Position numbers and translations under genes: made by a program. This document shows, in pieces, positions 14,397-40,178 of a stretch of DNA of 64,000 nt. Within the stretch, counting starts at the first letter, position 1, and each line of letters begins with the position of its first letter. Source of the DNA: Candidatus Deferrimicrobiaceae bacterium. GTDB taxonomy: Bacteria; Desulfobacterota; Deferrimicrobia; Deferrimicrobiales; Deferrimicrobiaceae. The stretch covers positions 2,973 to 66,972 of the forward strand of contig CAVRXE010000005.1 of assembly GCA_963725055.1 (NCBI GenBank). Reading direction: 5' to 3'. The notes beneath the pieces are model-generated. The model was given only the letters and a program-made list of their open reading frames with translations, made no database searches and had not been told where the DNA came from.

Positions 14397-14405
14397 GGGC
14401 AGGCA

Positions 14406-17235: not shown

Positions 17236-17236
17236 G

Positions 17237-18145
17237 ATGCGCTACCGCGGCGTCGCGCTCCTGCTCGTCCTGTGGGCGCTGGTACTGCTCGGGACGCTGG
17301 CCCTCGGATTCTCGTTGTCGATGCGGACGGAGGCGATGGCGGCGCGCAACGGGATCGACGAAACGCGCGCCTTGTTCCAGGCGCGGACGGGAGTGAACCG
17401 GGCCGTCGCGATGCTCGCCTCCGTGCCCGCAGACAACGTGATGGCGGCGACGATCGCAGGGGAAGACGGGGACGCGTCGTACGAGGTCCGGGTCGAGAGC
17501 GAGAGCGGCAAGGTGGACGTGAACCTCGTCGGCGAAGAGCTTCTTCTGGAGATTTTGAAGAAGGGAGGGCTTCCGGAGGAGGCGGCGGAAGACGTGCGGG
17601 ACGCGATCCTCGACTGGCGGGACGCGGACGACGTCCCCCGTCCTCGCGGGGCGGAACGCGCGGAGTACGGGCGGATGACCGAGCCGATCGCGCCCCGCAA
17701 CGGGAAGATCCGCGGCATCGGGGAGCTGATGTACGTGAAGGGGGTGACGAAGGAGATCCACGAGGGGTTTCTTTCAAGGATCTTCACGGTGCACGGGAAT
17801 TCCGCGCAAGTGAACTTCCTGCGCGCTCCGGAGATCGTCCTTCGATCGCTTCCGGGGGTTTCGTCCGAGGCGGCGGACCGGATCGTGGCTGGGCGCAGGG
17901 AGGAACCGCCGATCTCCGCCAAGGACCTCGCGCCGATGGTGAGGGAAGGGCTGCTGACCTCGCAGGGGCTGGCCCTCCTCTCCGGCGGATCCTCATCGCG
18001 TGTCTATACGATCACCGCCACGGGGAGGGCGGGAAACGACGTGACCCACGTCGTGCGGTGCCTGGTGGAAGTTTCGGGTTCCGGGGAAAAAGGGGTTAAG
18101 ATGCTCGGGTGGCTCGACAAGGCGCCTCGGGAGGAGGGCGGTTGA
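17237..18145 (+). CDS. gspK: Minor pseudopilin-like protein GspK
   Basis: MRYRGVALLLVLWALVLLGTLAL.. plus the central GspK pattern (..DAILDWRDADD..RPRGAERAEY.., ..IGELMYVKGVT..). Confidence 0.8.
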   Translation: MRYRGVALLLVLWALVLLGTLALGFSLSMRTEAMAARNGIDETRALFQARTGVNRAVAMLASVPADNVMAATIAGEDGDASYEVRVESESGKVDVNLVGEELLLEILKKGGLPEEAAEDVRDAILDWRDADDVPRPRGAERAEYGRMTEPIAPRNGKIRGIGELMYVKGVTKEIHEGFLSRIFTVHGNSAQVNFLRAPEIVLRSLPGVSSEAADRIVAGRREEPPISAKDLAPMVREGLLTSQGLALLSGGSSSRVYTITATGRAGNDVTHVVRCLVEVSGSGEKGVKMLGWLDKAPREEGG

Positions 18146-18159
18146 AGCGGTATCGCACC

Positions 18160-19605: not shown

Positions 19606-19624
19606 GTGCGGCGGTTGCTGTGCG

Positions 19625-20260
19625 ATGAACGCGGTGGGAGCGCTCCTCGCGCGCATTTCCGGGTTTTCCAGGCGGGAGAAGGCGATGTTGGCCGCGTGCC
19701 TTCTGGGCGTCGTCGTCTTCGCTGTCGCCAGTTGGGTGGTGATCCCGGCGCGGGCGGATTACGCGAGGAACCGGACCGCGATTCCCGCGCGCCGGGCCGT
19801 GATCGCGCGGTATGAGGCGTTCCGCCTTGGGCAGGACCAGGTCGACGAGGAACTCTTCGATCAGGTCCAGCGGATGGAGAAGTGGGAGGACGGCCTGCTG
19901 GTGGGGGAGACTCCGTCGGCGGCCGGGGTCTTCCTCCAGGGGCTCCTGAAGCCGCTCACCCAGCGGTCGGAGATCCGGGTGACGTCGATCCGGTCGCTGC
20001 CGCCGGTGAGGAAAGGGGCGTACACCGAGGTGTCCGTGCAGATCGAGATCCAGACTTCGACGGAGGGGCTTGCCCTCCTGCTGGCCGATCTCTCCCGGCA
20101 AACGAAGATCCTCCGGGTCGGGAAACTATTCGCCACCACGGGGGCGTATTACTATTCCGGGCAGGCGGCGCGAAAAGAAATCGTCGGCGTCTCGATGGTG
20201 GTGGCAGGCATCTCCGCGGCCCCCCTGGACGAGAAGACTCCGGGAAGGGGGGAAGAGTGA
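19625..20260 (+). CDS. gspM: GspM/PilO-like assembly protein
   Basis: Single N-terminal TM (..MLAACLLGVVVFAVASWVV..), position after gspL, and a ~210-aa size with ..YTEVSVQIEIQTSTEGLALLLADL.. as in GspM/PilO folds. Confidence 0.6.
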   Translation: MNAVGALLARISGFSRREKAMLAACLLGVVVFAVASWVVIPARADYARNRTAIPARRAVIARYEAFRLGQDQVDEELFDQVQRMEKWEDGLLVGETPSAAGVFLQGLLKPLTQRSEIRVTSIRSLPPVRKGAYTEVSVQIEIQTSTEGLALLLADLSRQTKILRVGKLFATTGAYYYSGQAARKEIVGVSMVVAGISAAPLDEKTPGRGEE

Positions 20261-21006
20261 GACGGCCGGCCCTCGCCACCGTCGCCCTCTCCCTGCTGGC
20301 GCTCCTCTTCGGATGGGAGACGCGGCAGGCATTGCTGGCGACGCCCGGCGGGCAGGATAACGTGGCGACGGCGGGGGCCTGGCAGCCCGGTGTCTCCGCG
20401 CCCGACCCGTCGCCCCCTCCCGACCCGACGACGCAGGCGGCGGCGGTCGCGGCCCGCCCGCTCTTTCGGCCGGACCGGCAGCCGTTCCGGGAGCAGGGGG
20501 CCGGTGCATCCGGACGGAATTACGAGGAGGAATTGTCCCGCTACACGCTGCTCGGGGTGCTCGATTTCGGGGGTGCGCCGTACGGCGTCGTGGTGGGAAA
20601 GGCGGGAAGCAAAGGGGAGCGTTGGGAGGTCAAGAGGGGGGATTCCCTCCAGGGGTTCGCGGTGAAGGAGGTCGGGGTGGAGGGGCTGCGGTTGACGGCG
20701 GATGGCCGGGAGTTCCTTCTGCCGCTGTATGCCGGGGCGCCCCGACAAGACGCCACGCGCCCGGCGTCCAAGCCGGTCTCTCCCCCAGCGCCCGCGCCGG
20801 GCTCCCCGACGCTCACACCAGGCTTCCCGACGCCCATGCCCGGCTCCGCCGCACTGCCGGGACCGGCGGCTCCGCCCGCCTCTCCCCTCTCGAACCGTTT
20901 GAGGCGAGTTCCCGCCACGCCCGTGGCGCCGGGCGCCTCACCGGCTCCTATGCCGTCCGATACACCGCCGGCCATGGCGCCGGGCAACATTCCGGGAAGA
21001 CGATGA
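20257..21006 (+). CDS. GspC/PilP-like (HR-domain) protein with a Pro-rich tail
   Basis: GTG overlaps the upstream stop. N-terminal TM, then ..RPLFRPDRQPF.. and ..YTLLGVLDFGGAPYGVVVGKAGSKGERWEVKRGDSLQGFAVKEVGVEGLRLTADGREFLLPL.., typical of the secretin-interacting HR domain. The C-terminus is Pro/Ala-rich. Confidence 0.6.
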   Translation: MRRPALATVALSLLALLFGWETRQALLATPGGQDNVATAGAWQPGVSAPDPSPPPDPTTQAAAVAARPLFRPDRQPFREQGAGASGRNYEEELSRYTLLGVLDFGGAPYGVVVGKAGSKGERWEVKRGDSLQGFAVKEVGVEGLRLTADGREFLLPLYAGAPRQDATRPASKPVSPPAPAPGSPTLTPGFPTPMPGSAALPGPAAPPASPLSNRLRRVPATPVAPGASPAPMPSDTPPAMAPGNIPGRR

Positions 21007-23423
21007 ACGAAGAACACGAAGGAACGGGGAGAAGACGGATGAATCGGATCGGTTGGTTGCTCTGCGTCGCCGCGCTGTTCGCGGCGAACGTCGTCGCCGC
21101 TGAAGAAGTCTCTCCGCCGGTTGTCCCCATGGAGACGGCGGCCCCACCCGCCACCGGCGCTCCGGCGCCGGACAATGTGGATACCGTCGTTCCGGCTCCT
21201 CCCGCGCCGCCGGAGACGGCCATACCGCCTCCTTCGCCGCCGTCGGTGACCACCCCTCCGCCCCCGCCTTCCGCTCCCGACCGCCACTCCGCCTCCGCCT
21301 TCCGGGCCCGCCCGCCATTCCGCCTCCGCCTTCCGGTTCCCGACCGCCACTCCGCCCCCGCCTTCCGGGTTCCCGACCGCCACTCCGCCCTCTCCGGCGT
21401 ACCCGATCCGCAGGCCACCCGCCGCCGTCGTTCCCCCGGCAGGCGGTCCCGTCTCCTGCCGTGGGGGGCGGCGCCGGATTCTTCGTCAAGTTCAACAACG
21501 CGGACATCTACGAGGTGATTCACACGCTCGGGCGCGCCGCGGGGATCAACTACCTCATCGACCCGAGGGTCCGCGGCGTCGTGAACGTGCACACGCAAGG
21601 TGTGGTGAGGAAGGACGGCGCGCTGGACCTCCTGTTCTCCATCCTTAAAGTCAACGGGGCGACGGCGATCAAGGAAGGGGACACGTACCACATCGTCCCG
21701 ATGACCGAGGCGAAGACGGAGCCGCTCCTCCCGACGTTTCCCGGGGACAACGCGGCGAAGGCATCCCCCAATCAGCCTTCCATGCGCGCGTACCCGCTGC
21801 AGTACATCGCCGTGGCGGAGATGGCGAAGGTGATCAGGCCGTTCCTGACCCCGGGAGGCGAGGCGGTGGAAGTGGGCCGCGCGAACATCCTCCTGGTGGT
21901 CGACACGACGGCGAACCTGGAAAAGACCGCGCGCCTGGTGGAGTTGTTCGATTCCGAGGTGTTCCGGGCGGCGGGGATGAAGCTTTTCAAGTTGAAGGTC
22001 CTCGACCCGGAGGAGATGGCGAAGAACCTGGAGAACATCTTCGGAGCTCTCGACTTCTCCGCCACGCGGGGCGGAAGCCGTCGGGCATCAACTTCGTCCC
22101 CATCCCGCGGCTGTACGCCCTGCTGGTGGTCAGCGCGTCCCCCAAGACCATGGAGGACGTGGAGAAGTGGATCGGTGAACTGGACCGCACGGGAGGGGGA
22201 GCATCCCGATCGATCCACCGGTACCGCGTGAAGTACGGGAAGGTGAAGGACATCGCCGCCGTCCTGGAGAAGCTGTACCCCAGGAAAACCGCGTCTCTTG
22301 CCGCCGACAAGGCAACGGAGTTCAAGCCCGCAGTGGGACTCGGTCTCCCCGGCCAGGCGTCGTTCCCCTCGCAAACGCCACCGGCCGGACAGCCCGGGGG
22401 TGCGGTCGCCCCGGCGGCCGCCAAGACGGCGAAAGGGGAAACCGAGGTTTCCACGCAGCCCTTCGACATCATCCCGGACGAGGCGACGAACTCCCTGATC
22501 CTGCGGGCCAGCCTGTCGGAGTACGCGGACGCCCTGGAGATCCTGAAGGCGGTGGACGTCTACCCGCAGCAGGTGCTGCTCGAGGTGCTGGTGGGGGAGG
22601 TGAACCTCAAGGACGATCTGCGGCTCGGGATCGACTGGACGTGGACGGGCAGCGGCGGGGGATACAACCAGACCGCCACCCTCGCACCCGGCGCGCTCCC
22701 CGGGCTGAACAATTTCACCTACCTGATCGAGAAGACGGGGAAGCTGACGGCGGCGTTCCGGTCGCTGGCGGAGGACGGCCGGGCCTCGGTCATCTCCTCG
22801 CCGAGCGTCATCGCGACCAACGGGAAGAAGTCGAAGATCAACGTGGTGGACCAGATCCCCATCACCTCCTCGGTCCTGAACAGCGCCACGAACCCGCCGG
22901 TGACGACCACCACCGTGGAGTACCGCGACGTGGGCGTCATCCTCACCTTCACGCCGTTCATCAACGACGAAGGGCTGGTGACGCTCGAGATCGAGCAGGA
23001 GGTGAGCGATGTCAACACCCTCTCCGCGGCGTGAACGCGAACCCGACCTTCTTCAAGCGGAGCATCTCCACGAATCTGATCGCCTCGCAGGACCAGAGCA
23101 TCGTCCTGGGCGGGCTGGTGAAGGAGCGCAAGTCGCTCGACCGGAGCGGGCTGCCGTGGTTCTACAAGATCCCCGTTTTCGGGTGGATCTTCGGGTCCCG
23201 GACGGACAGCGTCAGCCGGAACGAACTGCTGATCTTCATCACGCCGCGCGTGATCCGCAGCGTGGAGCAGGGGATCCAGCTCAGCCGGGACTTCGAGGAG
23301 CGGGTGGCGCAGCTGAAGTCCCGCATGAAGGAGACGCAGGGGATCCGGCTGAAGGTCCAGCCGGTCTTGCCGGTGCCCGACCCGACGAGAAACATCCCCC
23401 CGGCCGAAACGCCGCCGCAGTAA
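21003..23423 (+). CDS. gspD: Type II secretion secretin GspD, at least 4 frame breaks as sequenced
   Basis: Signal peptide MNRIGWLLCVAALFAANVVAAEE (frame 0), then a Pro-rich tandem-repeat linker. N0-N3 domains follow (..FFVKFNNADIYEVIHTLG.., ..RAYPLQYIAVAEMAKVI.., ..NILLVVDT..), then the secretin core (..DWTWTG.., ..VISSPSVIATNGKKSKINVVDQIPI.., ..VEYRDVGVILTFTPFINDEGLVTLEIEQEVS.., ..IVLGGLV..IPVFGWIFG..ELLIFITPRVI). Frame changes lie in 21270-21340, at ~21462-21467, at ~22068-22071 and at ~23028. Confidence 0.85.
21274..21400 (+). repeat. Tandem 33/30-bp coding repeat (about 4 units) in the secretin N-terminal linker
   Basis: Units at 21274-21306, 21307-21336 (30 bp), 21337-21369 and 21370-~21400, with consensus TTCCCGACCGCCACTCCGCCNCCGCCTTCCGGG. 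This encodes (F)PTATPPPPSG. A related unit (VTTPPPPPSA) lies just upstream. Confidence 0.85.
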
Positions 23424-23438
23424 GACATCCCGCCGGGG

Positions 23439-23946
23439 TCATATCCAGCGGGAGAAGTCTCCGGGGAGCGTGTGCGACTTGTAACACGATGACGCCCTCG
23501 CGGCCGATGAGCACGTACGTGGGAATCCCGACCACCCCGTACGCCCGGGCCGCCTGTCCCTGTTCGTCGAGGAGAACCGGGTACCGGATCGCGCGCGACT
23601 TGACCGCCTGCTCGACCTTTTCCCGGGACTCCCTGAAGTCGAGCCCGAAGACCAGCAATTTTTCCTTGAGCGGTCCCGTGACCAGCGCGTTGATCTCCGG
23701 GATGGCCGCCTTGCACTCCGGGCACCACGTCGCCCAGAAGACGAGGAGGACCGGGGTCTTCCCGAGGAACGGTCCGAGCGTCACCTGCCGGCCATCGAGA
23801 TCCGGCAGGGTGAAATCCGCGGGCCGGTCGCTTCCCGCACCGGATGCCACGGCCCCGCCGGCTGACAGAAGGGCAGAATCGGGTCCCGCGAGAGCGACCC
23901 CGCACAGAAGGAACAGCATCGCGGCGACGGCGAACCGGCACGGCAT
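23439..23946 (-). CDS. TlpA/ResA-like periplasmic thiol:disulfide oxidoreductase, probable 1-nt frame break near the 3' end
   Basis: RBS GGAGGGGA. Signal/anchor MPCRFAVAAMLFLLCGVALAG, thioredoxin motif FWATWCPECK, and ..GVVGIPTYVLIGREGVIV... As sequenced the ORF runs on to 23281, overlapping gspD. Removing one base at ~23483-23485 gives ..VIVYKSHTLPGDFSRWI* with the stop at 23439-23441. Confidence 0.75.
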
Positions 23947-23996
23947 CGTCCCCTCCTTCCACCGTTCGATGGGTCCCGACCCGGGAGCGTTTCGGG

Positions 23997-24707
23997 TCAT
24001 ATCAGCCGCTTCCCCGCCTCGAGGAGAAGGTATTCGCCCGCCAGCAGGAGCACGACGCCGAACGCCCGCTGGACCTTCACCGTCCACCCCCCCCCCTTCG
24101 GGAGGTTCGAGACCAATCCCGCGAACGTGCCGAGTGCCACGACGGGAAGCCCCATCCCCAGCGCGAAGGTGAACAGGAGGGTCGCCCCGAAGAAGGGGCG
24201 CCCGCTCGCCCCGACATAGAGGAGCAGTCCCCCGAGCACCGGCGCCGTGCACGGCCCGACGACCAGGCCCGACAGCAGGCCCACGACGAAGGCGCCCCCC
24301 GCCCCCCGTGCCTTCCCCGGTGGCCCTCCGGCGCCGGCGAAGATCGCCAGTGCCGGGAGATGGAAGACGTCGAACAGGGAAAGGGCGAAGAGGATGCAGA
24401 CGTTCCCGAGGATCAGGTACGAGAGGGGGTGCGCCGTCGCCTCGCCGAACACGCTGCCGGAAAGCGCGGCCGCCATCCCGAGGGCCGCGTACGTCATCGC
24501 CATCCCGAGAGCGTAGGACGCGGATACGAGGAACGCCTGCCGGCGGGACCCCCCGGTGCGGCTTCCGATGTACCCCACCGTCACCGGGAGGATCGGGTAG
24601 ACGCACGGGGTGAAACTTGCGAGGATCCCTCCGAGAAAAGCGATGGCGTACGCAAGCGGGGAGCCCGCCTGGAGGTGCGCCTGGAACGAGGAGAAGAGCA
24701 TCTGCAT
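23997..24707 (-). CDS. ccdA: Cytochrome c biogenesis thiol-transfer membrane protein CcdA (DsbD transmembrane-domain family)
   Basis: MQMLFSSFQAHL.., two conserved Cys-Pro motifs (..ASFTPCVYPILP.., ..VVGPCTAPVLG..) and 6 hydrophobic helices. Confidence 0.85.
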   Translation of the reverse strand: MQMLFSSFQAHLQAGSPLAYAIAFLGGILASFTPCVYPILPVTVGYIGSRTGGSRRQAFLVSASYALGMAMTYAALGMAAALSGSVFGEATAHPLSYLILGNVCILFALSLFDVFHLPALAIFAGAGGPPGKARGAGGAFVVGLLSGLVVGPCTAPVLGGLLLYVGASGRPFFGATLLFTFALGMGLPVVALGTFAGLVSNLPKGGGWTVKVQRAFGVVLLLAGEYLLLEAGKRLI

Positions 24708-24772
24708 CGGGGCGGCGCTTTCCGTCCCCGGAGAGGGACCGGGAATCGATGGAATCAGTTGTCCCGGACAGT

Positions 24773-25555
24773 CTACCGGGCGCCGTTCAGGAGCGAGAGC
24801 AGCGCCTCCGCCTCCATGTAGCCGCTGACCATGCGCCCGTTGGGGAGGATCATGGTCGGCGTCCCCTCGATCTTCAGCCGGTCGGCGAGCTTCATCGTCT
24901 CGTTCACCGCGTCGCTCTCGCACGACGGGGCCGGGAGCTCCTTCCCGGCGTAGGCCTCGTCGAGCATCTTCTCCGATTTCGAGCAGACGACGGCGAGGCA
25001 ATTCCGGTACGTGGCCTTGTCGTTCCTGTTTCGCGGATACGGCATCACGAGGAACGCAACGTCCTTATCCTTCGCCGCCGCCTTTTTGATCTCCCCGTGC
25101 AGCTTCACGCAGTACGGGCAGGTGGGGTCGGTGAGGACGATGACCGCCTTCTTCGCCGCCTTGCTCCCGATCCGGACGGCGTCCTTGACCGGGATGGAAG
25201 CGACGTCCACGCGGTTCAGGTCCTGGTACCGCAGCCCGGTGAGGTTCTCCATGTTCGCCAGGCGGATGAACTGTCCGTTGAAGAGGTACTTCAGGGAATA
25301 GTCGAGGTAGATCGGATACGTTTTTCCGCTTCGCGCGACGTCCACCTCCCATACCCCGGGGAACGGCCCCGGCACGACGGCGACGACGTTGTCCACGACC
25401 TTCCCGAGCAGCTTCCCCGCCTCCTCTTTCGAGAGTTTGTGGCACTCCGTACAGTCCCCGGCGATCCCGGCCTCTTTCCGGAACGCAGCCGCGGGTGTGG
25501 AAAGGAACAGGGCGAGAAACGAGGCGAGGACGCAGGCGGTCAGGAACGGTTTCAT
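24773..25555 (-). CDS. DsbC/DsbG-like thioredoxin-fold protein with an N-terminal CxxCH motif
   Basis: RBS AAGGAGA. Signal peptide MKPFLTACVLASFLALFLSTPAAA, then ..GDCTECHKLSKEEAGKLL... The thioredoxin fold carries ..VLTDPTCPYCVKLH.. and ..IEGTPTMILPNGRMVSGY... Confidence 0.75.
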   Translation of the reverse strand: MKPFLTACVLASFLALFLSTPAAAFRKEAGIAGDCTECHKLSKEEAGKLLGKVVDNVVAVVPGPFPGVWEVDVARSGKTYPIYLDYSLKYLFNGQFIRLANMENLTGLRYQDLNRVDVASIPVKDAVRIGSKAAKKAVIVLTDPTCPYCVKLHGEIKKAAAKDKDVAFLVMPYPRNRNDKATYRNCLAVVCSKSEKMLDEAYAGKELPAPSCESDAVNETMKLADRLKIEGTPTMILPNGRMVSGYMEAEALLSLLNGAR

Positions 25556-25789
25556 CCGGAGTCTCCTTGTGGGGGGCATGGAAACAATTGTACACCGACT
25601 ACCGCGGCATTTCGCCGAATTCGAGGATGCGTTGCGTGGATCCACCTGCTTCGCCGCCCTTCCGTTCGGCCCTGCCTCCTGCCGCTTTCCCCATTGTCGG
25701 TGCCGGCTGTGGAAGATTGTTGTTGATAGGATCGGTTATTTTTGGGAAAATCTTTGTCATTCCAAATTCCGTTTTGTTTGGGGGTACGA

Positions 25790-27109
25790 ATGGGACGTCC
25801 GACGACCGTGGCCTCTCCCGGGAAACGAGTGCTCCCTGCCGTTGTTGCCGTCACGCTGTTCCTTCCCCTCCTGTTCGCGGGCACGGCCCTGGCGGCCGAC
25901 CTTTCCCTCTCCTCGAAGACCTACGGCCTGGCATACGAGCGGGAGCAGGCCGGGGGTCAGAAGGACCGGTACGTCCCACTGTACGAGTACCTGTCGGCGG
26001 ACGCGGCGAACCTGGGGGGAAAGCCCCTCTCCTTCCACTTCTACGGCTGGGGGCGGGTCGACCTCGACACGGATAGCGGCTCCGGGAGTACCTCCGGGGA
26101 GGTCGGGAGCATCTACCTGGAGTATCTCCATCCGGAGGGGAACGCCCAGGCGAAGCTGGGCCGGTTCTTCCTCACGGAGGGGGCGGCGATGGAGATCATC
26201 GACGGCGCGTTCGTCAAGGCGACGACCCCCATCGGTCTTGGGGTTTCCCTCTACGGCGGCGTCCCGGTGGAGTACTCCATCCTTGGCAACACGAGCGGGG
26301 GAGATTCCCTCTTCGGCGGCCGGGTATTCTTCGTCCGCCCGGGGTTCGTGGAGATCGGGGCATCGTACCTGAAGGAGAACGGGACGTTCCAGGAGGGGAA
26401 GGACCGTGAGCTGGTCGGCGGCGACCTGTGGCTGCGCGTCGCCCCGTCGGTGGAATTGACCGGCCAGGCGGCGTACAACCGGTCGGTCAGCGAGATGGCC
26501 TCGCAGCGTTACGCGGTCCGGATCGTCCCCGGCTCTACCCTCGACATCTCCGCGGGCTACGAGTCGTACACATACAAAGGGCTCTTCCAACCCGCGCTGA
26601 ACCCGGCGTTCGTATTCCCCTCGGTGAACCCCGACGACAAGGTCGATGTGATCTTCGGCATCGTGGACTGGACGTTCGTCCCCGGCTGGACGCTTGAGGT
26701 GGCGGGGAAGAACATCCGGCACGACAAGTCCGACCCCGGGGACGCCAACCGCGGGGAGGTCGGGCTGCGCTACTCCTACAACGACAAGAAGGACACGGCG
26801 GGGCTCTCCGCCGCCTTCGTCTCCGCCGACCGGGAGGAGAACGAGTACCAGGAGTACCGCGGCTTCGCCACCTACTCGCCGGGGAAGACCCGGCTGACCC
26901 TCGATGCCCTGACCCAGCAGTACAAGAAGGAGATCAACGGGAAGAAGGACCAGGTCCAGGTGGTCGCCACGGCGGGGTACCAGCTCCTCGCGGCGCTGCA
27001 GCTCTCCGGCAACCTGATGTACACGCAAAGCCCCAGCTTCCAGGAAGACTGGGCGGGGTTGGTCCGGGTGACCTACGATTTCGCGATGAGCACGGGAGGG
27101 AAGAAATGA
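25790..27109 (+). CDS. Large outer-membrane beta-barrel (porin-like) protein, first gene of the cytochrome trio
   Basis: Signal peptide ..VVAVTLFLPLLFAGTALA|ADL. The ~440-aa mature part consists of short alternating strands rich in G/Y/W/F, with aromatic beta-signal ..GLVRVTYDF near the end. The stop overlaps the next start (ATGA). An alternative TTG start lies at 25742. Confidence 0.75.
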   Translation: MGRPTTVASPGKRVLPAVVAVTLFLPLLFAGTALAADLSLSSKTYGLAYEREQAGGQKDRYVPLYEYLSADAANLGGKPLSFHFYGWGRVDLDTDSGSGSTSGEVGSIYLEYLHPEGNAQAKLGRFFLTEGAAMEIIDGAFVKATTPIGLGVSLYGGVPVEYSILGNTSGGDSLFGGRVFFVRPGFVEIGASYLKENGTFQEGKDRELVGGDLWLRVAPSVELTGQAAYNRSVSEMASQRYAVRIVPGSTLDISAGYESYTYKGLFQPALNPAFVFPSVNPDDKVDVIFGIVDWTFVPGWTLEVAGKNIRHDKSDPGDANRGEVGLRYSYNDKKDTAGLSAAFVSADREENEYQEYRGFATYSPGKTRLTLDALTQQYKKEINGKKDQVQVVATAGYQLLAALQLSGNLMYTQSPSFQEDWAGLVRVTYDFAMSTGGKK

Positions 27110-27576
27110 TGCGCCGCTCTCACGCCGTGAAGATCCTCGGGGCGGCCCTGCTCGCCCTGATGTTCGGCTGCTCCGCCGTCTCGAAGACCCCGTCGGTTCC
27201 CCCGAAACACCCGGAGGATCTGCCGCAGGGGCGGGTCGACTGCCTCGAGTGCCACAAGGACGTGTCCGCCGGGGCGCTGAAGCCGTACGCGAATTTCCGG
27301 CACTCCGTGGTCTTCATCAACTCCCACGGCACGTACGCCCGCCAGGGGCAGAACCTGTGCTCCTCCTGCCACAAGCCGGAGTTCTGCCAGACGTGCCACG
27401 CCGGGAAGGAGGAGCTGAAGCCGAACACGAAGATGGGCGACCGGCCGGACCGGATGGCGCCGCACCGGGGGGATTACATCGCCACCCACCGGATCGACGG
27501 GCGCCTCGACCCCGGGTCTTGCTACCGGTGCCACGGGAACAAGAGCGACAGCCGGTGCAAGCAGTGCCACAAGTAG
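27106..27576 (+). CDS. Small pentahaem c-type cytochrome (signal peptide/lipobox-like LMFGC)
   Basis: 156 aa with five CxxCH motifs: CLECH, CSSCH, CQTCH, CYRCH, CKQCH. Hydrophobic signal sequence MMRRSHAVKILGAALLALMFGCS. Confidence 0.85.
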   Translation: MMRRSHAVKILGAALLALMFGCSAVSKTPSVPPKHPEDLPQGRVDCLECHKDVSAGALKPYANFRHSVVFINSHGTYARQGQNLCSSCHKPEFCQTCHAGKEELKPNTKMGDRPDRMAPHRGDYIATHRIDGRLDPGSCYRCHGNKSDSRCKQCHK

Positions 27577-27589
27577 GACGGGAGGAGAC

Positions 27590-29507
27590 ATGACCACGAA
27601 GATGCGAACCCTCCGGGACTTCCGGAATCCGATCGGTTGCCTGATCCTTCTGGCTGCGTTCGCCGTGGCCGCCGGCTGCTCCACAGCCGAATCCCCCAGC
27701 GGGTCCGCCACGAACATGAACCACGTCCTCCCCTCCGGCAGTTCCGTGGCGGGGTGGCTGGTCCTCCCCTCCGGCGGGACGCACGCGAGCACCGCCACGC
27801 TGGACTACATCGACGGCGGCGGGAGCAGCGGTTGCACGCAGTGCCACGGATCGGATCTCTCGGGCGGGATCTCCAAGGTATCCTGCTTCGGTAACCCGGC
27901 CGGGTGCCACCACACCCCGGTCGCGAACTGGGCTACCCCCGCGGTGCACGGGGCGACCGCAAAGAAGGCCCCGGGCAGCTCCGGGTTCGCCTCCTGCCAG
28001 ATCTGTCACGGGAACAACTTCTCCGGCGGCGGGGCGAAGGTCTCCTGCACAAACAATCCCAACGCCACGTGTCACGGCCCCGCTGTCGCATCGCCGCACC
28101 CGCCCAAGCCATGGCGTGCCTCCGCTGGCACCACGTTCACCCACACGACCACGAACCCGGCGAACGCCCCGGTCTGTTACGGGTGCCATGCCGACTCCCC
28201 GGCGGGGAACCTGAACAACCCGCACCGTCCGCCGACGCCCGCGGCGGCGGGCACTGCCCCCGGTTGCTTCAACGGGACGATGTGCCACGAGCCGGCCGGG
28301 GGCTCCGCATCCGGTAGGGATTCCCGCCTGGGGGACGCCCCCGCCGGCGGCCCAGCCCCACGGGAACGACGCGAAGGCGACCCCGGGCTCGACCACCGGG
28401 TTCGCCTATTGCCAGGACTGCCACGGGACCGGGACGACGTCTCCGGCGAACTTCGGAGGCGGCTCGTCCGGGGTGTCCTGCTACACCTGCCATGGGCCGA
28501 ACGCACCGCATGCCCCCGCGCCGTGGCGCACCTCGGCCGGAAGCACTACAGCCACACCAGCACCGACGCGGCGAACGCCCCGGTCTGTCAGCAGTGCCAC
28601 TTCGTTGGGTCACCGAACAACCCGGCGGGCCATCCGCCCACCCCCGCTCCGGCGGGGACCGCGCCCGATTGCTTCAACAGCACGCTGTGCCACGGGAGCG
28701 TCGCCCCGCACAAGGTGCCGTTCAACGACAATACCCACTTCGACGTGGTCACCGCCACGTTTGAGGCAGCTTGCAGCGCCTGCCACGACGTCTCCGCGCC
28801 GTCGACGAAGTCCGGGCCTGTTTGCCGGACGTGTCACGTCGCGGCCTCGCCGCTGACGTCCCTGAACTGCACCTCCTGCCACGCCAGCCCGCCGTCGGGG
28901 GCGGCGTATCCGAACATCGCCGGAGCGCATTCGACCCACATCGCACTGGACAACACGGGGAGCCCGGTTTCCTGCGACACCTGCCACAACGGGCTGGGAC
29001 CCAGCCTCCTGAACCTGAACCATTACAACCGCGCCAAATCCCGGGTGGCCCCCGGGGACGCGGCGTTCCTGGCGACATACTTCGCGAAAACCGGGGCGTC
29101 GTCCTTCGATAACGGCGCAGCGCTTAGTTGTTCGAACGTGAGCTGCCACGGCGGGCAGGCCACGCCGAACTGGCAGGCCGGCACGCTCAATGTGAACTCC
29201 CAGTGCACGAATTGCCACGTTTTCGGGCCGTCTCTTGGAAACCCTCAATACAACAGCCCGTACTCGGGAGAGCACAACATAAACACACCGACCTTCCCGG
29301 GTGCGCATCAGACCTGCCACGAACTGCCACAACACCACCACGCTCGCGGTGAACCATTTCACCACGCTCGCCGATAATACGATCTCGCCGACCGTTGCGT
29401 CTGCGACCATCGGCGGCGCGGGGACGGCCATTATCACGTGGACGCCCGGAACAGGCACCTCGGGTACGTGCAATGCAGCCTGCCACCCAGGGGACCGGAC
29501 CTGGTAG
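27590..29507 (+). CDS. Large multihaem lipoprotein c-type cytochrome (9 CxxCH as sequenced, 12 after repair of 3 frame breaks)
   Basis: GGAGG RBS. Lipobox ..LLAAFAVAAGC. CxxCH motifs in the open frame: CTQCH, CQICH, CYGCH, CQQCH, CSACH, CRTCH, CTSCH, CDTCH, CTNCH. C-x4-7-CH motifs are also present (CSNVSCH, CFNGTMCH, CFNSTLCH). Frame changes lie at 28297-28301, ~28539-28543 and ~29318. The final part is ORF 29301-29507. Confidence 0.8.
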
Positions 29508-29540
29508 GCAAGCGGGGCCAGTATCCGGGGTAACGTCGCG

Positions 29541-29585
29541 GCCCCGGGGGACCGAGGTTCCCCGGGGCTTTCTCTTTTTATTTCG
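29541..29585 (+). terminator. Rho-independent terminator closing the cytochrome operon
   Basis: Perfect 9-bp stem GCCCCGGGG/CCCCGGGGC (29541-29549 / 29560-29568) with a 10-nt loop, followed by TTTCTCTTTTTATTT. Confidence 0.85.
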
Positions 29586-29628
29586 CCTCTCCGGGGCCGT
29601 AACATCCGCCGGGGTATAGACTGCAGGG

Positions 29629-30585
29629 ATGATGACTCTTGCCGTAAAGTCCCCGCTGCACCCGCGCGGGCGCGTCTACGCCGGTCTCGTCCTCACGATG
29701 GTGTTCTGGGGGAGCGCGTTCGCGACCTCGAAGATGCTCGTCTTCGAAGTGCCGCCGGAGGTGGGAGCGGCCCTCCGGTTCGGCCTCGGCTCCCTGCTGA
29801 TGATGGCGATCCTCTTCCGGCGGTCCGCGAATCCGATCCCCGCGCGGGCCGACTGGGGACGTATGGCCGTCGTCGCGCTTGTCGGCGTCACGGGGTTTAA
29901 CACCCTCTTCTTCCTCGGGCTCTCCCTCGCGCCCGCCTCCGACGCGGGGATGATCATCCCCACCATGTCCCCCGTCTTCACCGCGATGGCGGGCATGCTC
30001 TTCCTCGGCGAGGGAGTCCGCTTCGGACGGATCGCAGGGCTGACCGTTTCGCTTGCGGGGGCGGTTCTCTTCTTCTGGGCGGTGATCGCACACCCGGCGG
30101 GGCAGGGCGGTCGGGTGTGGGGGGACGTGGCGCTCGTCGGGGCCGCGATCTGCTGGGCGGCGGCCTCCATCCTGTCGCGCCCCCTCTCGGTCCGGATCGG
30201 CGCGATGCCGACGGCCGCGTGGACGATTTTCCTGGGGAGCCTCGTCCTGCTGCTGGTCTCCTCCCCCAAGCTCGCCGCCGTGCCGTGGGGGCAGTTAACG
30301 GGCCGCTTCTGGATCGTGCTGGCCTATGTGGTGGTCTTCCCTACGGTGATCGCGTACTTCCTGTGGATGGAGGGGATCCGCGCGATCGGGTCGGGGCCGA
30401 CGACGTCGTTCATGTTCCTCGCGCCCGTCTTCGCCCTGCTGATCGCCGCCGCGCTGCTCGGGGAACGTCCCACGGCGCTTCAGGGGGGGGGCGGCGCGTT
30501 GATGCTGCTCGGCGTGTGGCTGGTGAACCGTCCCCGAGAAGGGAGATCCCCGCTCAGGGGGCGAGGATCGCCCGCAAGCCCGTGA
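29629..30585 (+). CDS. EamA/DMT-family transporter
   Basis: 318 aa with 10 hydrophobic helices in two EamA-like halves (..VFWGSAFATSK.., ..ICWAAASILSRPL..). Confidence 0.8.
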   Translation: MMTLAVKSPLHPRGRVYAGLVLTMVFWGSAFATSKMLVFEVPPEVGAALRFGLGSLLMMAILFRRSANPIPARADWGRMAVVALVGVTGFNTLFFLGLSLAPASDAGMIIPTMSPVFTAMAGMLFLGEGVRFGRIAGLTVSLAGAVLFFWAVIAHPAGQGGRVWGDVALVGAAICWAAASILSRPLSVRIGAMPTAAWTIFLGSLVLLLVSSPKLAAVPWGQLTGRFWIVLAYVVVFPTVIAYFLWMEGIRAIGSGPTTSFMFLAPVFALLIAAALLGERPTALQGGGGALMLLGVWLVNRPREGRSPLRGRGSPASP

Positions 30586-32933: not shown

Positions 32934-33203
32934 GTGCCGATCTACGAGTACAAATGCCCCGGGTGCGGGGAGTTCGAGAAGGAGCAGCGGATGTCCGATC
33001 CGCCGCTCAGGAAGTGCCCCCACTGCGGCAAAGCGGTCACCCGGCTGGTCGGCGGCGGCGGCGGCTTCGTGCTGAAGGGCGGGAACTGGGTCTCCAAGAT
33101 GTCCTCTTCGGGGGAATCCGCCAAGAAGAAATCCGACCGGTTCATGAAGCAGACCGTGGGAGAGGTCGCCGAAGATATCGCGAAGCATTCCCGGTCCCAT
33201 TGA
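32934..33203 (+). CDS. FmdB-family zinc-ribbon protein
   Basis: GTG start behind a GGAGGAG RBS. VPIYEYKCPGCGEFE..(17 aa)..KCPHCG is the CxxC-CxxC FmdB signature. Confidence 0.8.
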   Translation: MPIYEYKCPGCGEFEKEQRMSDPPLRKCPHCGKAVTRLVGGGGGFVLKGGNWVSKMSSSGESAKKKSDRFMKQTVGEVAEDIAKHSRSH

Positions 33204-33209
33204 CGGCGT

Positions 33210-33941
33210 TTATGGCAACGCTTTGAGCAGGACGGAGCGGGGGGCGCCCTGCGAAAGTTCGACGAGCTCCCCGTCCGCGAGGAGACGCCATCCGGAATCC
33301 GCGTCGAGCGGTTCGCTCGCGACGACCGCAAGACCGTCCCCGGAGTTCAGGTACAGCGTGTAATATTCCCCGTTCCGGTGGAACCGCCGGAACGCGAAGA
33401 GCTCGTCGCCGGTGGCGATCAGCAGGTTCGCCGCCGAATATTCCCCCACCAGTTCGCGGTCGGAGAGAATCCCCCGAAGCGCTTCGGATAATCCGGCCAG
33501 CGTCCGCTCCGCCCACCGGTCCTCGAGGAGTTCGAGGAAGACCACGGTATCGCTGACCTTGCGGGCATCCCCCTCGGCGCCGATCTTCCCGTAAAAGGTC
33601 CCGTTGTGGGCGAGGGTCACTCCAAGCGCCTGGAACGGGTGCGAGTTCGCCGCGCTGACGGTTTCCGGGTTCGACGCGTACCGGACATGGCCGATGAACC
33701 GGTCGGTGACGGCGCTCATGCCGGAAAGGAGCGGGTCGGTCGCGGCGGGATTCCCGCTTTTCACCATCCGGATCTCGTCCCCCGCCCGCCAGGCAACCCC
33801 CCACCCGTTCGGGTGGTTTCCCCCCGCGCGCCTCTCCCAGCCGGCGACGAGGTTCCCCGATTCGCAGAACCTCGCAAGGGAGGCGAGGTACGGTCCCACG
33901 TCCCGCGGCTCGTTCGACGAAAACGCGATCATCCGGCACAT
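33210..33941 (-). CDS. Class II (Ntn-type) glutamine amidotransferase-like protein
   Basis: Begins MCRMIAFSS (Met-Cys nucleophile start), with ..GWGVAW.., ..GHVRYAS..NSHPF... No stop separates it from the upstream actF-like ORF (see findings). Confidence 0.7.
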   Translation of the reverse strand: MCRMIAFSSNEPRDVGPYLASLARFCESGNLVAGWERRAGGNHPNGWGVAWRAGDEIRMVKSGNPAATDPLLSGMSAVTDRFIGHVRYASNPETVSAANSHPFQALGVTLAHNGTFYGKIGAEGDARKVSDTVVFLELLEDRWAERTLAGLSEALRGILSDRELVGEYSAANLLIATGDELFAFRRFHRNGEYYTLYLNSGDGLAVVASEPLDADSGWRLLADGELVELSQGAPRSVLLKALP

Positions 33942-34044
33942 GTTGACATGATACCCGCTTCCCGCACCCGCGGACAGGGGAGAGCCGAGGATACCTCGAC
34001 GGCATTGATGTAGCGAAGATGAGCTCCCGCGAGGACGTAACGCT

Positions 34045-35081
34045 TCAAGGGAGGTACTTCTGGAACTCTTGTACACGACGGCGACGAACAGGAGAAGGAG
34101 GCAGGCGAAGTCGATCCCCAGCGCGACCGGGGAGAACCGGACCACGGGGGCCAGGAAGACGTACCGCTCGACCAGGATCCCCGACAGGATGGAGAGGGCC
34201 GCGGCGGAGACCACGTACGGGTTCGATTTCGCCCGGGTGGACAGGAGCGCCGGGAAGGGGATGAAGAAGAGGAGGAAGAGGACCGCGACGCAAAGCTCGC
34301 GCAGGGGGGACGCGGACAACCTCCGTGCGAGGAAGCCGACCTCCTCGGGGAGGTTCCCGTACCAGATGGTGAGGAACTGGGCGAAGAAGAGTCCGGCCCA
34401 CATGAGGCTGAAGCCGAACATCAGGATGGAGAGGTCCGAAAGGTCCGATCGGGATCCGTGGCCGCGGTCCGCGGGGGGAGTTCCGCGGAACAGGAGGCAG
34501 AGGAGGGCCGAGACGGCGAACCCCCCGTAGATCGACTCGATGAAGAAGTATCCCCCGAGGAGCGCGCTGATCCAGGGGTACTCGAGGGACATGACCAGGT
34601 CGAAGGCGGTAAGGGTCTGGGACACGACGAAGACGAGGAGGTACCAGGCGGCGCGGGACTTCGTCCCTTCCCCGTCGGCGGGGGCGGCGGCGAACCGCCG
34701 GGCCGTGACGTAGGCGAGCAGCAGGAAGGCGAGGTTGCGGCCGATGAAGAAATCCTTCCGGAGCCAGATCCCCGGCTTGCCCGCCCACGGGTAGGAGTCC
34801 ACGAAGGGGATCAGCAGGAGGAGCAGGAACGCCGCCAGGAGGAGGAGCGGGGTGACCGAGAGCAGCTCCTTCCTCACGGAGCCGACCCACCGCGCGTTCA
34901 CCGTGGCTCCCGCCGCCGCCGCCGCGATGCACCCCTCGACGACCGCGATGAAGAAGAGGAACGCCAGGAGGAGCGATCCGCCCCTCCCGGCGGCGGGGGT
35001 CAACGAGACGAACGCCATGAGCGCTCCCGCTGCCGCGATGAGGAGGACCAGGCCGCCCTTCTTTTCCAGGAACGCCGTCAT
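34045..35081 (-). CDS. actF: Alternative complex III membrane subunit ActF-like; 3' end uncertain
   Basis: Polytopic membrane protein with the ActF-type motif ..WAGLFFAQFLTIWYGNLPEEVGFLARR... As sequenced it reads through into the amidotransferase ORF. A 1-nt repair near 34055 would end it ..VVYKEFQKYLP* at 34045. Confidence 0.6.
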
Positions 35082-35515
35082 CGCCGCTCACCGTCCTCGA
35101 CCAGGATCACGAACGCGTTCCCGTACTCCTCCCCCGACCGGATCCCCCGGAGGCTCGGCAGGCGGGACAGGAGGAGGAAGCCCGCGAACGTGGACAGGGC
35201 GCCGAACAGGATCGTGAGGGCGAACGCGATGATGAGGAAGGGCGGCAGCGAGACGACCGGTTTCCCTCCAACGATGAGCGGCCAGCTGAGGGAGGTCAGG
35301 ATGGTGAAGGCGAACCCCGAGACCGTGCCGGACGCCGCGCCGACGAGCGCGAAGAACCGGACCTTCGATCGCTTGCCGGGAAGGATCTCCTCCACCTCGG
35401 GGACGCCGAACGGCGTAATCACCCGGATCCTCTCCCCCGGAACGCCTTCCTCAACCAGTCCCCGCAGACGCTCGAGGAACTTTCCCTTCTCTTCGAAGAC
35501 CATCGGCCCGGCCAT
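35078..35515 (-). CDS. actD: Alternative complex III subunit ActD (DUF3341 type)
   Basis: 145 aa with a soluble N-terminal part and two C-terminal helices. Position between ActC and ActF. ATGA-type overlaps on both sides. Confidence 0.7.
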   Translation of the reverse strand: MAGPMVFEEKGKFLERLRGLVEEGVPGERIRVITPFGVPEVEEILPGKRSKVRFFALVGAASGTVSGFAFTILTSLSWPLIVGGKPVVSLPPFLIIAFALTILFGALSTFAGFLLLSRLPSLRGIRSGEEYGNAFVILVEDGERR

Positions 35516-39614: not shown

Positions 39615-39623
39615 CGTCCCCCT

Positions 39624-40136: not shown

Positions 40137-40178
40137 CGTCTCTCCCGCATGCGACGGTTTCCCGTTCCGGCCCGGCGG

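What the first reader, a model, noticed from the sequence alone, without database searches (positions are those of the whole stretch)
25790..29585. Divergent porin-cytochrome (Pcc/OmbB-OmaB-OmcB-like) outer-membrane electron conduit
Seen in sequence: three co-directional genes are start/stop-coupled (ATGA at 27106-27109; a 13-nt gap with GGAGG before 27590). They are closed by a 9-bp GC hairpin plus T-run (29541-29585). Gene 1 has a cleavable signal peptide (..LLFAGTALA|ADL), a ~440-aa mature part of short alternating strands rich in G/Y/W, and an aromatic beta-signal ..GLVRVTYDF. That describes a large outer-membrane beta-barrel. Gene 2 is 156 aa, with a signal peptide ending LMFGC and five CxxCH. 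Gene 3 has lipobox AVAAGC, 9 CxxCH in the open frame and 12 after three 1-nt repairs. It also has C-x4-7-CH motifs (CSNVSCH, CFNGTMCH, CFNSTLCH) like the Geobacter CxxxxCH...CxxCH multihaem domain. Established knowledge: Geobacter ombB-omaB-omcB conduits have this same order, namely a porin-like barrel, a periplasmic multihaem cytochrome and a 12-haem lipoprotein cytochrome. Inference: this is a divergent trans-outer-membrane extracellular-electron-transfer module with a 5-haem rather than 8-haem inner partner. Generic annotation would leave it as hypothetical protein plus cytochrome c.
Basis: partly seen in the sequence, partly recalled or inferred. Interest (0 to 1): 0.85.

Follow-up and report, generated by a model that had tools for sequence, protein, structure and literature searches.

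The report
ExtEFG-type outer-membrane electron conduit genes
These three genes, in an uncultured Deferrimicrobiaceae (MBNT15) bacterium, are a copy of the Geobacter ExtEFG outer-membrane "porin plus cytochromes" electron conduit, so they are a new member of a known system and not a new kind of one.

Summary
Three coupled genes encode a barrel protein, a 156-aa five-haem lipoprotein, and a large multihaem lipoprotein that needs three 1-nt frame repairs. A strong hairpin terminator closes the unit.

I compared each gene with the G. sulfurreducens PCA locus, which holds omcB/omcC and extEFG side by side.
- Barrel: 33% identical to ExtE over 398 aa (E 2e-63). Against OmbC only 26% over the N-terminal half (E 9e-11).
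- Five-haem protein: 52% identical to ExtF (E 2e-57).
- Repaired gene 3: aligns end to end with ExtG (E 3e-56) and shows no real similarity to OmcC.

So the "5-haem instead of 8-haem partner" is the normal ExtF feature, not a divergence. In the 76 testable genome loci (Deferrimicrobiaceae, Geobacteraceae, Desulfuromonadales), the barrel is followed by a five-haem gene, and in 71 its start codon overlaps the barrel's stop. The third gene is homologous wherever the contig reaches it, but has 4-24 CxxCH. AlphaFold2 gives a confident 22-strand barrel with no plug.

The frame breaks are probably long-read assembly errors, because gspD (and apparently gspE) upstream is broken too. The conduit function is inferred. 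Verdict: new member of a known kind, modest interest.

The parts
25723..25751 (+). Sigma-70-like promoter candidate (TTGATA, 17 nt, GAAAAT, with TG) about 40 nt upstream of gene 1
   Evidence: It is the only such site in 25300-29800; shuffles give a mean of 0.3. This is a consensus match only.
25790..27109 (+). Gene 1: ExtE-family outer-membrane beta-barrel, 439 aa, signal peptide ...FAGTALA|ADL, 22 predicted strands, no plug domain
   Evidence: 33% identity and E 2e-63 over 398 aa to G. sulfurreducens ExtE (P0328). AlphaFold2 gives pLDDT 89.6, pTM 0.81 and 22 strands. No Pfam or NCBIfam family. 422 clusters at 50% identity match with E<=1e-3.
27106..27576 (+). Gene 2: ExtF-family pentahaem lipoprotein cytochrome, 156 aa, translationally coupled to gene 1 (ATGA overlap)
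   Evidence: 52% identity and E 2e-57 to ExtF. The 36-sequence alignment A3 has five invariant CxxCH plus five further invariant His (H35, H66, H74, H120, H128). The lipobox Cys aligns with that of ExtF.
27590..29507 (+). Gene 3: ExtG-family large multihaem lipoprotein cytochrome. It is 638 aa after repair, with 12 CxxCH and 6 CX3-7CH. As assembled, the frame is broken three times.
   Evidence: Frames read. E 3e-56 to ExtG over the whole length. TIGR01904 scores 26.6 bits at residues 499-553. An intact 747-aa orthologue is at L001:9866-12109.
28296..28335 (+). Frame break 1 in gene 3: one base too many, within a stretch holding G5 and C5 runs. The exact site is not resolved.
   Evidence: The conserved sequence (…GFAYCQDCHG…SCYTCHGP…) continues in frame +1 from here.
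28538..28545 (+). Frame break 2 in gene 3: one base missing (…WRTSAG|xHYSHTSTD…)
   Evidence: The frame returns to that of the start codon. This matches repeat copy 1 (WRASAGTTFTHTTT).
29316..29319 (+). Frame break 3 in gene 3: one extra C in tgCCacg. Removing it restores CTNCH and the C-terminal 60 aa ending ...CNAACHPGDRTW.
   Evidence: The restored C-terminus aligns with ExtG (CSECHDTTKLATTHFTNL…CLFTCH).
27950..28700 (+). Tandem duplication inside gene 3: two copies of a module of about 135 aa (period 405-415 nt), each with three C(x2-7)CH sites, a PHPxxPW motif and a closing CFN(G/S)T(M/L)CH
   Evidence: direct repeats D1-D3 and D6, 80-85% nucleotide identity; 77 identical residues in 166 aligned columns. 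L001 has three copies.
29540..29579 (+). Intrinsic terminator closing the three-gene unit
   Evidence: 13-pair stem with 10 G-C pairs, 4-nt loop, T-rich tail.

Best explanation
The locus is a three-gene ExtEFG-type porin-cytochrome module of a Deferrimicrobiaceae (MBNT15) bacterium.

Shown:
- All three products are full-length homologues of G. sulfurreducens ExtE (barrel), ExtF (pentahaem lipoprotein) and ExtG (large multihaem cytochrome), in the same order.
- The barrel and pentahaem genes are translationally coupled.
- The unit has its own promoter-like site and terminator.

Inferred mechanism:
- The 22-strand, plug-less barrel sits in the outer membrane.
- It sheathes the small bis-His pentahaem protein, which acts as the wire across the membrane. 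Five haems in a row would span roughly the thickness of an outer membrane.
- The pentahaem protein takes electrons from periplasmic cytochromes.
- It passes them to the large lipoprotein cytochrome on the cell surface. That protein is built from tandem modules of 3-4 haems plus a C-terminal CxxxxCH/CxxCH domain, varies in length between genomes, and reduces Fe(III)/Mn(IV) minerals or other extracellular acceptors.
- The three frame breaks in gene 3 are most likely assembly errors, so the organism probably has an intact gene.
For: Homology to the reference locus. L084 is G. sulfurreducens PCA AE017180.2. It shows omcB, a TetR gene, OmbC (403 aa), OmaC (8 CxxCH), OmcC (12 CxxCH), four small genes, then a 431-aa barrel, a 157-aa 5-haem protein and a 691-aa cytochrome, followed by a YedY-like gene and Hox hydrogenase. 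This is exactly the extEFG (GSU2726-2724) context described by Otero et al. 2018 (PMC6148476).

Pairwise comparisons:
- Barrel vs ExtE: 33% over 398 aa, E 2e-63.
- Gene 2 vs ExtF: 52% over 150 aa, E 2e-57.
- Gene 3 vs ExtG: whole length, E 3e-56, sharing CFNxT(L/M)CH, CSNVSCHGGQ and a C-terminal Cx3CH.

Recurrence across 80 genome loci:
- In 71 of 76 testable loci the five-haem gene's start codon overlaps the barrel's stop (ATGA 66, GTGA 5).
- 71 of 76 pentahaem proteins have a lipobox-like site, as do 31 of 34 gene-3 homologues.
- The third gene is homologous in nearly all loci where the contig reaches it, but carries 4-24 CxxCH.

Other support:
- Structure: 22 strands, pLDDT 89.6, no plug.
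- Five invariant extra His fit bis-His ligation of five haems.
- Frame breaks as errors: the upstream gspD maps in three frames onto the window, while Illumina-assembled relatives have intact gspD and gene 3. Sibling long-read assemblies break different genes. gspE also appears split, judged from ORF sizes only.
Against: - There is no functional evidence for this organism. No ExtEFG complex has been purified or solved: the PDB has no sequence relative of the barrel or of ExtF.
- I could not model which cytochrome sits in the barrel.
- The literature disagrees on topology. Otero 2018 put ExtF outside and ExtG in the periplasm. PMC13013709 puts the pentahaem protein facing the periplasm and the large one outside.
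- No periplasmic partner (an ExtA- or PpcA-type cytochrome) is encoded next to the trio.
- As assembled, gene 3 is broken three times, and I could not prove these are errors. The closest gene-3 DNA elsewhere is only 77-87% identical.
- The direction of electron flow cannot be read from sequence.
Confidence: 0.8

Rival explanations
1. It is a divergent OmbB-OmaB-OmcB (classical Geobacter Pcc) cluster in which the eight-haem periplasmic partner has shrunk to five haems.
For: The gene order is the same: barrel, small cytochrome, large lipoprotein cytochrome with 12 CxxCH. There is weak but real similarity of the barrel to OmbC (26% over 245 aa, E 9e-11) and of gene 2 to OmaC (26%, E 3e-12). This suggests a distant common origin of the two conduit types.
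Against: Every component matches ExtE, ExtF or ExtG far better (E 2e-63, 2e-57, 3e-56). Gene 3 has no significant similarity to OmcC. In the 76 testable related loci the small cytochrome is about 156-163 aa with five CxxCH wherever it is complete, so five haems is the ancestral state of this family and not a reduction.
Confidence: 0.04
2. The module is decaying. Gene 3 is a genuine pseudogene, perhaps along with the upstream type II secretion genes, and the conduit no longer works in this strain.
For: There are three frame breaks in 1.9 kb of gene 3. gspD upstream has at least two frame breaks, and gspE looks split on ORF sizes alone. Only one of the three gene-3 breaks lies near homopolymer runs. 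The broken genes would belong to one functional chain: secretion system plus surface cytochrome.
Against: All haem motifs and conserved segments survive intact in the shifted frames, with no stops or further decay. Related long-read assemblies (contig_NNNN records) break different genes: L001 has a broken secretin but an intact gene 3, and L003 has both broken. Illumina assemblies L037 and L007 have an intact secretin, and L037 an intact gene 3. The barrel and gene 2 are intact and highly conserved.
Confidence: 0.12
3. It is the same machine with a different job. The conduit carries electrons inward (Fe(II) oxidation or electron uptake, as with PioAB/MtoAB), or it serves soluble or oxyanion acceptors and not mineral Fe(III).
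For: Porin-cytochrome conduits are reversible in principle. In the held literature MBNT15 genomes encode aerobic respiration (PMC9386147). In G. sulfurreducens extEFG lies in a unit with a YedY-like gene and a Hox hydrogenase, and another ext cluster affects selenite and tellurite reduction (PMC6148476). The surface cytochrome is hypervariable (4-24 CxxCH), which suggests varied partners.
Against: [quoted passage not shown] MBNT15 abundance correlates with iron, and its genomes are rich in multihaem cytochromes. The window shows no Fe(II)-oxidation marker such as cyc2 near the locus, though I only scanned haem motifs and Pfam families for the neighbours.
Confidence: 0.15

Closest known systems
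ExtEFG of Geobacter sulfurreducens (GSU2726-2724; Otero, Chan & Bond 2018, PMC6148476)
   Same: Same three proteins in the same order. The barrel is 33% identical over its full length, the pentahaem lipoprotein of about 157 aa is 52% identical, and the large cytochrome aligns end to end and shares the CFNxTLCH, CSNVSCHGG and C-terminal Cx3CH motifs. The barrel stop and pentahaem start overlap by 4 nt in both.
   Different: - The host is in another phylum-level lineage (Deferrimicrobiaceae/MBNT15).
- The window's unit ends at a terminator and is followed by an EamA transporter gene, not the YedY-like gene and Hox hydrogenase.
- Gene 3 has two copies of the tandem haem module, 12 CxxCH, and one CxxCH replaced by CTNNPNATCH.
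- Upstream neighbours are Dsb/thioredoxin genes and a type II secretion operon.
ExtABCD of G. sulfurreducens (GSU2645-2642)
   Same: By published description, ExtB-ExtC-ExtD is a barrel, a five-haem lipoprotein and a 12-haem lipoprotein. That is the same layout as the window, where both cytochromes carry lipoboxes. Clusters with extBCD but no adjacent extA are known.
   Different: I could not obtain ExtB, ExtC or ExtD sequences, so relative closeness to ExtBCD versus ExtEFG is untested. No ExtA-like 12-haem periplasmic gene precedes the barrel here.
OmbB-OmaB-OmcB / OmbC-OmaC-OmcC (classical Geobacter Pcc)
   Same: Same logic and gene order (barrel, small cytochrome, large lipoprotein cytochrome). 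There is distant sequence similarity in the barrel's N-terminal half and in the small cytochrome.
   Different: The small cytochrome there has eight haems and 231 aa, and shows no lipobox in the N-terminus read. The OmcB/C-type surface cytochrome is unrelated to gene 3. The barrel similarity is only 26% over 245 aa.
MtrCAB of Shewanella oneidensis
   Same: Analogy only. A cytochrome wire sheathed by a large plug-less barrel hands electrons to a surface lipoprotein cytochrome. The inner pair is conserved and the outer partner is variable.
   Different: There is no match to the Pfam MtrB/PioB family among the families returned for the barrel. The barrel has 22 predicted strands, against 26 for MtrB (from the published structure, my knowledge). 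The wire would be a 5-haem lipoprotein, not a 10-haem soluble protein. Foldseek finds only generic large barrels (TM 0.3-0.5).

Membership tests
ExtEFG-type conduit (Geobacter GSU2726-2724) | Outer-membrane barrel homologous to ExtE over its full length | tested here: met
   33% identity, 398 aa aligned, E 2e-63 against P0328, which is the barrel at L084:9001-10296 in G. sulfurreducens PCA.
ExtEFG-type conduit (Geobacter GSU2726-2724) | Small pentahaem lipoprotein cytochrome (ExtF) encoded directly after the barrel | tested here: met
   52% identity and E 2e-57 to ExtF. It has five CxxCH and a lipobox Cys aligned with that of ExtF, and its start overlaps the barrel's stop by 4 nt, as in 71 of 76 related loci.
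ExtEFG-type conduit (Geobacter GSU2726-2724) | Large multihaem cytochrome homologous to ExtG as the third gene | tested here: met
   E 3e-56 with whole-length alignment, after three 1-nt frame repairs. As assembled, the gene is interrupted.
ExtEFG-type conduit (Geobacter GSU2726-2724) | Co-transcription with a YedY-like gene and Hox hydrogenase (a feature of the G. sulfurreducens locus, probably not of the family) | tested here: not met
   A terminator follows gene 3 at 29540-29569. The next gene is an EamA-family transporter.
ExtEFG-type conduit (Geobacter GSU2726-2724) | Contribution to extracellular Fe(III)/Mn(IV) oxide reduction | not testable with these tools
   This needs genetics or biochemistry. 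It is known only for G. sulfurreducens (PMC6148476).
OmbB-OmaB-OmcB porin-cytochrome (Pcc) | Barrel of the OmbB/OmbC family | tested here: inconclusive
   26% identity over 245 aa (N-terminal half only), E 9e-11 against OmbC. This is a distant relation, much weaker than the match to ExtE.
OmbB-OmaB-OmcB porin-cytochrome (Pcc) | Eight-haem periplasmic cytochrome OmaB/OmaC | tested here: not met
   Gene 2 has five CxxCH, 156 aa and a lipobox. It is 26% identical to OmaC (231 aa, 8 CxxCH) in partial alignments.
OmbB-OmaB-OmcB porin-cytochrome (Pcc) | OmcB/OmcC-type 12-haem surface lipoprotein | tested here: not met
   The best segment against OmcC is 44 aa with E 0.003. There is no alignment beyond isolated haem motifs.
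MtrAB/PioAB/MtoAB conduits | Barrel matching the Pfam MtrB/PioB family, paired with a decahaem MtrA-type cytochrome | tested here: not met
   The barrel hits no Pfam family at E<=0.1. The partner has five haems.
ExtABCD-type conduit | Sequence homology to ExtB, ExtC and ExtD, and an ExtA periplasmic 12-haem gene upstream | not tested
No cytochrome gene precedes the barrel in the window.
TIGR01904 CxxxxCH/CxxCH domain cytochromes | Score at or above the curated cutoff (27 bits) | tested here: inconclusive
   26.6 bits, E 3.7e-6, residues 499-553 of repaired gene 3. This is just under the cutoff.

The most novel reading that the evidence does not exclude
This ExtEFG-type trio would be the missing outer-membrane step of iron respiration in the Deferrimicrobiaceae/MBNT15 lineage, for which Begmatov et al. 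2022 left the outer-membrane Fe(III) reductase hypothetical. In this family it forms a conserved island with a type II secretion operon and Dsb/thioredoxin genes, which would export and mature the surface cytochrome. More generally, the barrel plus lipid-anchored pentahaem pair would be a minimal trans-outer-membrane wire, about half an MtrA, shared across phyla, with a surface cytochrome whose length is tuned by gain and loss of tandem haem modules.
Probability: 0.4. Interest if true: 0.5.

Novelty: new member of a known kind. Interest (0 to 1): 0.3.

Why it matters
MBNT15/Deferrimicrobiaceae bacteria are abundant in iron-rich peat, sediments and groundwater. They are predicted to be iron reducers from cytochrome counts alone. 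The one genome paper in the held library found inner-membrane and periplasmic modules but no outer-membrane conduit. Assigning a specific, conserved ExtEFG-type conduit gives a concrete marker for transcript and protein studies. It also shows that the Ext family extends well beyond Desulfuromonadales.

For annotation, it shows that Pfam and NCBIfam have no model for ExtE or ExtF, so such clusters are systematically labelled "hypothetical protein" and "cytochrome c". None of this changes how these systems are thought to work.

Tried and rejected
- Pfam and NCBIfam scans of the barrel found no family.
- PDB sequence searches with profiles of the barrel (A1) and of the ExtF family (A3) found nothing meaningful.
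- Foldseek of the barrel model against the PDB found only generic large barrels (ushers, OprD/Occ, AlgE; TM 0.3-0.5) and no specific relative.
- The search for related loci with the 68-sequence alignment failed because no stretch was conserved enough. It worked with 12 sequences.
The single-sequence run gave pLDDT 41, which is unusable, so I made no fold comparison.
- No multimer modelling is available and no model coordinates are accessible. The question of which cytochrome enters the barrel therefore stays open.
- I tried to place the three indels exactly by DNA alignment to relatives. Gene 3 is too divergent for this: the best matches are 77% identity with 140 gaps over the full gene, and 87% over only the first 700 nt.
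- I rejected a chance cluster of CxxCH motifs, because all three genes have full-length homologues in synteny.
- I rejected recent horizontal transfer from Geobacter. Identity is only 30-50%, and the G+C of the locus (0.67-0.68) matches its flanks.
- A literature search for ExtEFG in Deferrimicrobium/MBNT15 found no report.

Full report
**1. What is in the sequence**

The region holds three co-directional genes on the + strand.
- Gene 1 (25790-27109, 439 aa) starts with a long signal peptide (…LLFAGTALA|ADL). Its stop overlaps the start of gene 2 by 4 nt (ATGA).
- Gene 2 (27106-27576, 156 aa) has an N-terminus ending ALLALMFGC|S and five CxxCH.
- After a 13-nt spacer containing GGGAGG, gene 3 starts at 27590.
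- As assembled, the gene 3 open frame ends at 29377 with nine CxxCH. The conserved coding signal moves to the +1 frame somewhere in 28296-28335, returns near 28541, and moves again at about 29318.
- Removing one base, adding one and removing one C gives a 638-aa protein ending at 29507. It has a lipobox (AAGC|S), 12 CxxCH and six CX3-7CH sites.
- A 13-pair hairpin (10 G-C pairs) with a T-rich tail at 29540-29579 closes the unit. A sigma-70-like site lies at 25723-25751.

The mature barrel is about 400 aa, not about 440.

**2. Profile and structure evidence on the parts**

- The barrel matches no Pfam or NCBIfam family. Gene 2 gets only sub-threshold cytochrome c3/c7 hits. Gene 3 hits Cytochrome_C7 and c3 above their cutoffs, and TIGR01904 at 26.6 bits (cutoff 27).
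- AlphaFold2 with a 68-sequence alignment gives a confident model of gene 1: pLDDT 89.6, pTM 0.81.
- The model has 22 beta-strands and no plug or extra domain. The only helix of note is the signal peptide.
- Foldseek against the PDB returns only generic large barrels at TM 0.3-0.5.
- Profile searches of PDB sequences find no solved relative of the barrel or of gene 2.

**3. Recurrence**

- The barrel has hundreds of relatives: 466 clusters at 90% identity in one collection and 422 clusters at 50% identity in another.
- The closest named relatives are Candidatus Deferrimicrobium and Deferrimicrobiaceae (MBNT15).
- Three metagenome contigs with barrels 79-93% identical show the same trio in the same neighbourhood. 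One has an intact 747-aa gene 3 with three copies of an internal module.
- A scan of one genome per species returned 80 loci from Deferrimicrobiaceae, Geobacteraceae, Desulfuromonadaceae and relatives, including cultured Geobacter argillaceus, Geobacter sp. OR-1, Geomonas silvestris, Oryzomonas japonica and Pelotalea chapellei.
- In the 76 testable loci the barrel is followed by a five-haem gene of about 156-163 aa. In 71 of them its start codon overlaps the barrel's stop (ATGA 66, GTGA 5).
- 71 of 76 small cytochromes have a lipobox-like site.
- The third gene is a homologue of gene 3 in nearly all loci where the contig reaches it. It ranges from 4 to 24 CxxCH.

**4. Which known system it is**

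A search with the G. argillaceus barrel found a G. sulfurreducens protein (P0328, 431 aa, UniRef name "Outer membrane channel"). Its locus in strain PCA (AE017180.2) reads, in order:
- the end of omcB;
- a TetR gene;
- a 403-aa barrel, a 231-aa 8-haem cytochrome and a 768-aa 12-haem lipoprotein (OmbC-OmaC-OmcC);
- four small genes;
- P0328, a 157-aa 5-haem lipoprotein and a 691-aa cytochrome;
- a YedY-like molybdoenzyme and a Hox hydrogenase.

This is the extEFG (GSU2726-2724) context described by Otero et al. 2018 (PMC6148476). Having both conduit types in one locus allowed direct tests.

| Window gene | vs ExtEFG | vs OmbC-OmaC-OmcC |
|---|---|---|
| Barrel | ExtE: 33% over 398 aa, E 2e-63 | OmbC: 26% over 245 aa, E 9e-11 |
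| Gene 2 | ExtF: 52% over 150 aa, E 2e-57 | OmaC: 26%, E 3e-12 |
| Gene 3 (repaired) | ExtG: whole length, E 3e-56 | OmcC: best segment 44 aa, E 0.003 |

- ExtG shares the unusual motifs of gene 3: CFNNTLCH twice, CSNVSCH, and a C-terminal Cx3CH.
- The trio is therefore a member of the ExtEFG family. It is only a distant cousin of OmbB-OmaB-OmcB.
- The five-haem partner is the family's normal state.
- ExtABCD has the same barrel, 5-haem lipoprotein, 12-haem lipoprotein layout by description. I could not test it because its sequences were out of reach.

**5. How it most likely works**

Shown:
- homology of all three parts to ExtEFG;
- tight coupling of the barrel and pentahaem genes;
- a plug-less 22-strand barrel model;
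- five invariant CxxCH plus five further invariant histidines in the ExtF family, as expected for five bis-His haems;
- lipoboxes on both cytochromes;
- a tandem module of about 135 aa in gene 3 whose copy number differs between genomes.

Inferred:
- The barrel sheathes the pentahaem protein as a wire across the membrane.
- Periplasmic cytochromes feed it.
- The large, variable lipoprotein cytochrome is the surface reductase.

The pattern of a conserved inner pair with a replaceable outer cytochrome is the one Otero et al. noted for Ext clusters. It parallels MtrAB with MtrC. Published views of ExtF/ExtG topology conflict, and I could not model the complex. The direction of electron flow and the substrate are not determined by sequence.

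**6. The frame breaks**

- The upstream secretin gene gspD maps onto the window in three frames. gspE also appears split, judged from ORF sizes.
- Illumina-assembled relatives have an intact gspD (L037, L007), and L037 has an intact gene 3. Related long-read assemblies break different genes.
- In gene 3, all conserved motifs survive in the shifted frames.
- Assembly error is therefore the likelier cause. I put a real pseudogene at about 12%.

**7. Novelty**

- ExtEFG is a described, genetically studied cluster.
- Homologues have already been reported outside Geobacter, in Holophaga and in Ca. Geosyntrophus, the latter with a 24-CxxCH ExtG (PMC11748539, PMC13013709).
- The held literature has no report of it in Deferrimicrobium/MBNT15.
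- The genome paper on that lineage left the outer-membrane Fe(III) reductase hypothetical (PMC9386147).

This is a new member of a known kind. It is useful for annotation and ecology, but not surprising to a specialist.

Noticed in passing
window 12694-23423 (+ strand): A type II secretion operon lies directly upstream of the conduit: GspE-like, GspF, pseudopilins, GspK, a PilN/GspL-like gene, GspM and secretin GspD. The adjacency is conserved in Deferrimicrobiaceae loci (L001-L003, L007, L037) but not in the Geobacter loci. GspD is in three frames here, and GspE looks split on ORF sizes.
   Followed up: partly
window 23440-25645 (- strand): Three thiol-redox genes face away from the conduit: an AhpC/TSA-thioredoxin-like protein, a DsbD/CcdA-type membrane protein, and a DsbC/DsbA-like protein. 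The last carries one CxxCH (CTECH) just after its signal peptide. L013 carries a similar single-CxxCH protein at the matching position. They may serve cytochrome maturation.
   Followed up: partly
window 33142-40883 (- strand): An alternative-complex-III-like or NrfD-type quinol module lies about 4-11 kb downstream of the conduit. It has a 170-aa pentahaem cytochrome (39624-40136), a 928-aa molybdopterin-like/4Fe-4S protein with a Tat-like start (36828-39614), an NrfD-family membrane protein (35515-36831) and a monohaem cytochrome c (40179-40883). It could be the inner-membrane electron source.
   Followed up: partly
L084:10777-12852 (G. sulfurreducens ExtG): By my count ExtG has 13 CxxCH plus six CX3-10CH sites, and an N-terminus …GLALWGC|SSG that looks like a lipobox. 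Otero et al. 2018 describe it as a periplasmic dodecahaem cytochrome. 31 of 34 homologues with the N-terminus covered also have a lipobox-like site.
   Followed up: partly
window 28044-28073 (gene 3 residues 153-162): The window has CTNNPNATCH (Cx7CH) where the 747-aa orthologue in L001 has a plain CFTCH. This is a five-residue insertion inside a haem-binding motif.
   Followed up: no
L056:1042-8854: A Geobacteraceae MAG carries two complete modules in tandem: barrel, 163-aa 5-haem and 955-aa 19-CxxCH, then barrel, 157-aa 5-haem and 354-aa 8-CxxCH.
   Followed up: no
L058, L076, L081, L052, L079 (about 9000-13300 in each): In a subgroup of Geobacter loci the trio has a third gene with about 9 CxxCH. 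It is followed by a conserved haem-less protein of about 910-930 aa, a small lipoprotein of about 150-185 aa, and another cytochrome with 7-10 CxxCH. This looks like an extended operon variant.
   Followed up: no
L009, L029: Two loci with barrels 76% (L009) and 61% (L029) identical to the window's sit in MAGs labelled Actinomycetota and Candidatus Limnocylindria. This is most likely mis-binning of short contigs and not real occurrence in those phyla.
   Followed up: no
window 8939-11929 (+ strand): A 996-aa ORF combines MASE3 sensor, HisKA, receiver, sigma-54 activator and Fis-type HTH domains, just upstream of the secretion operon. It may be a fusion created by a frame error.
   Followed up: no
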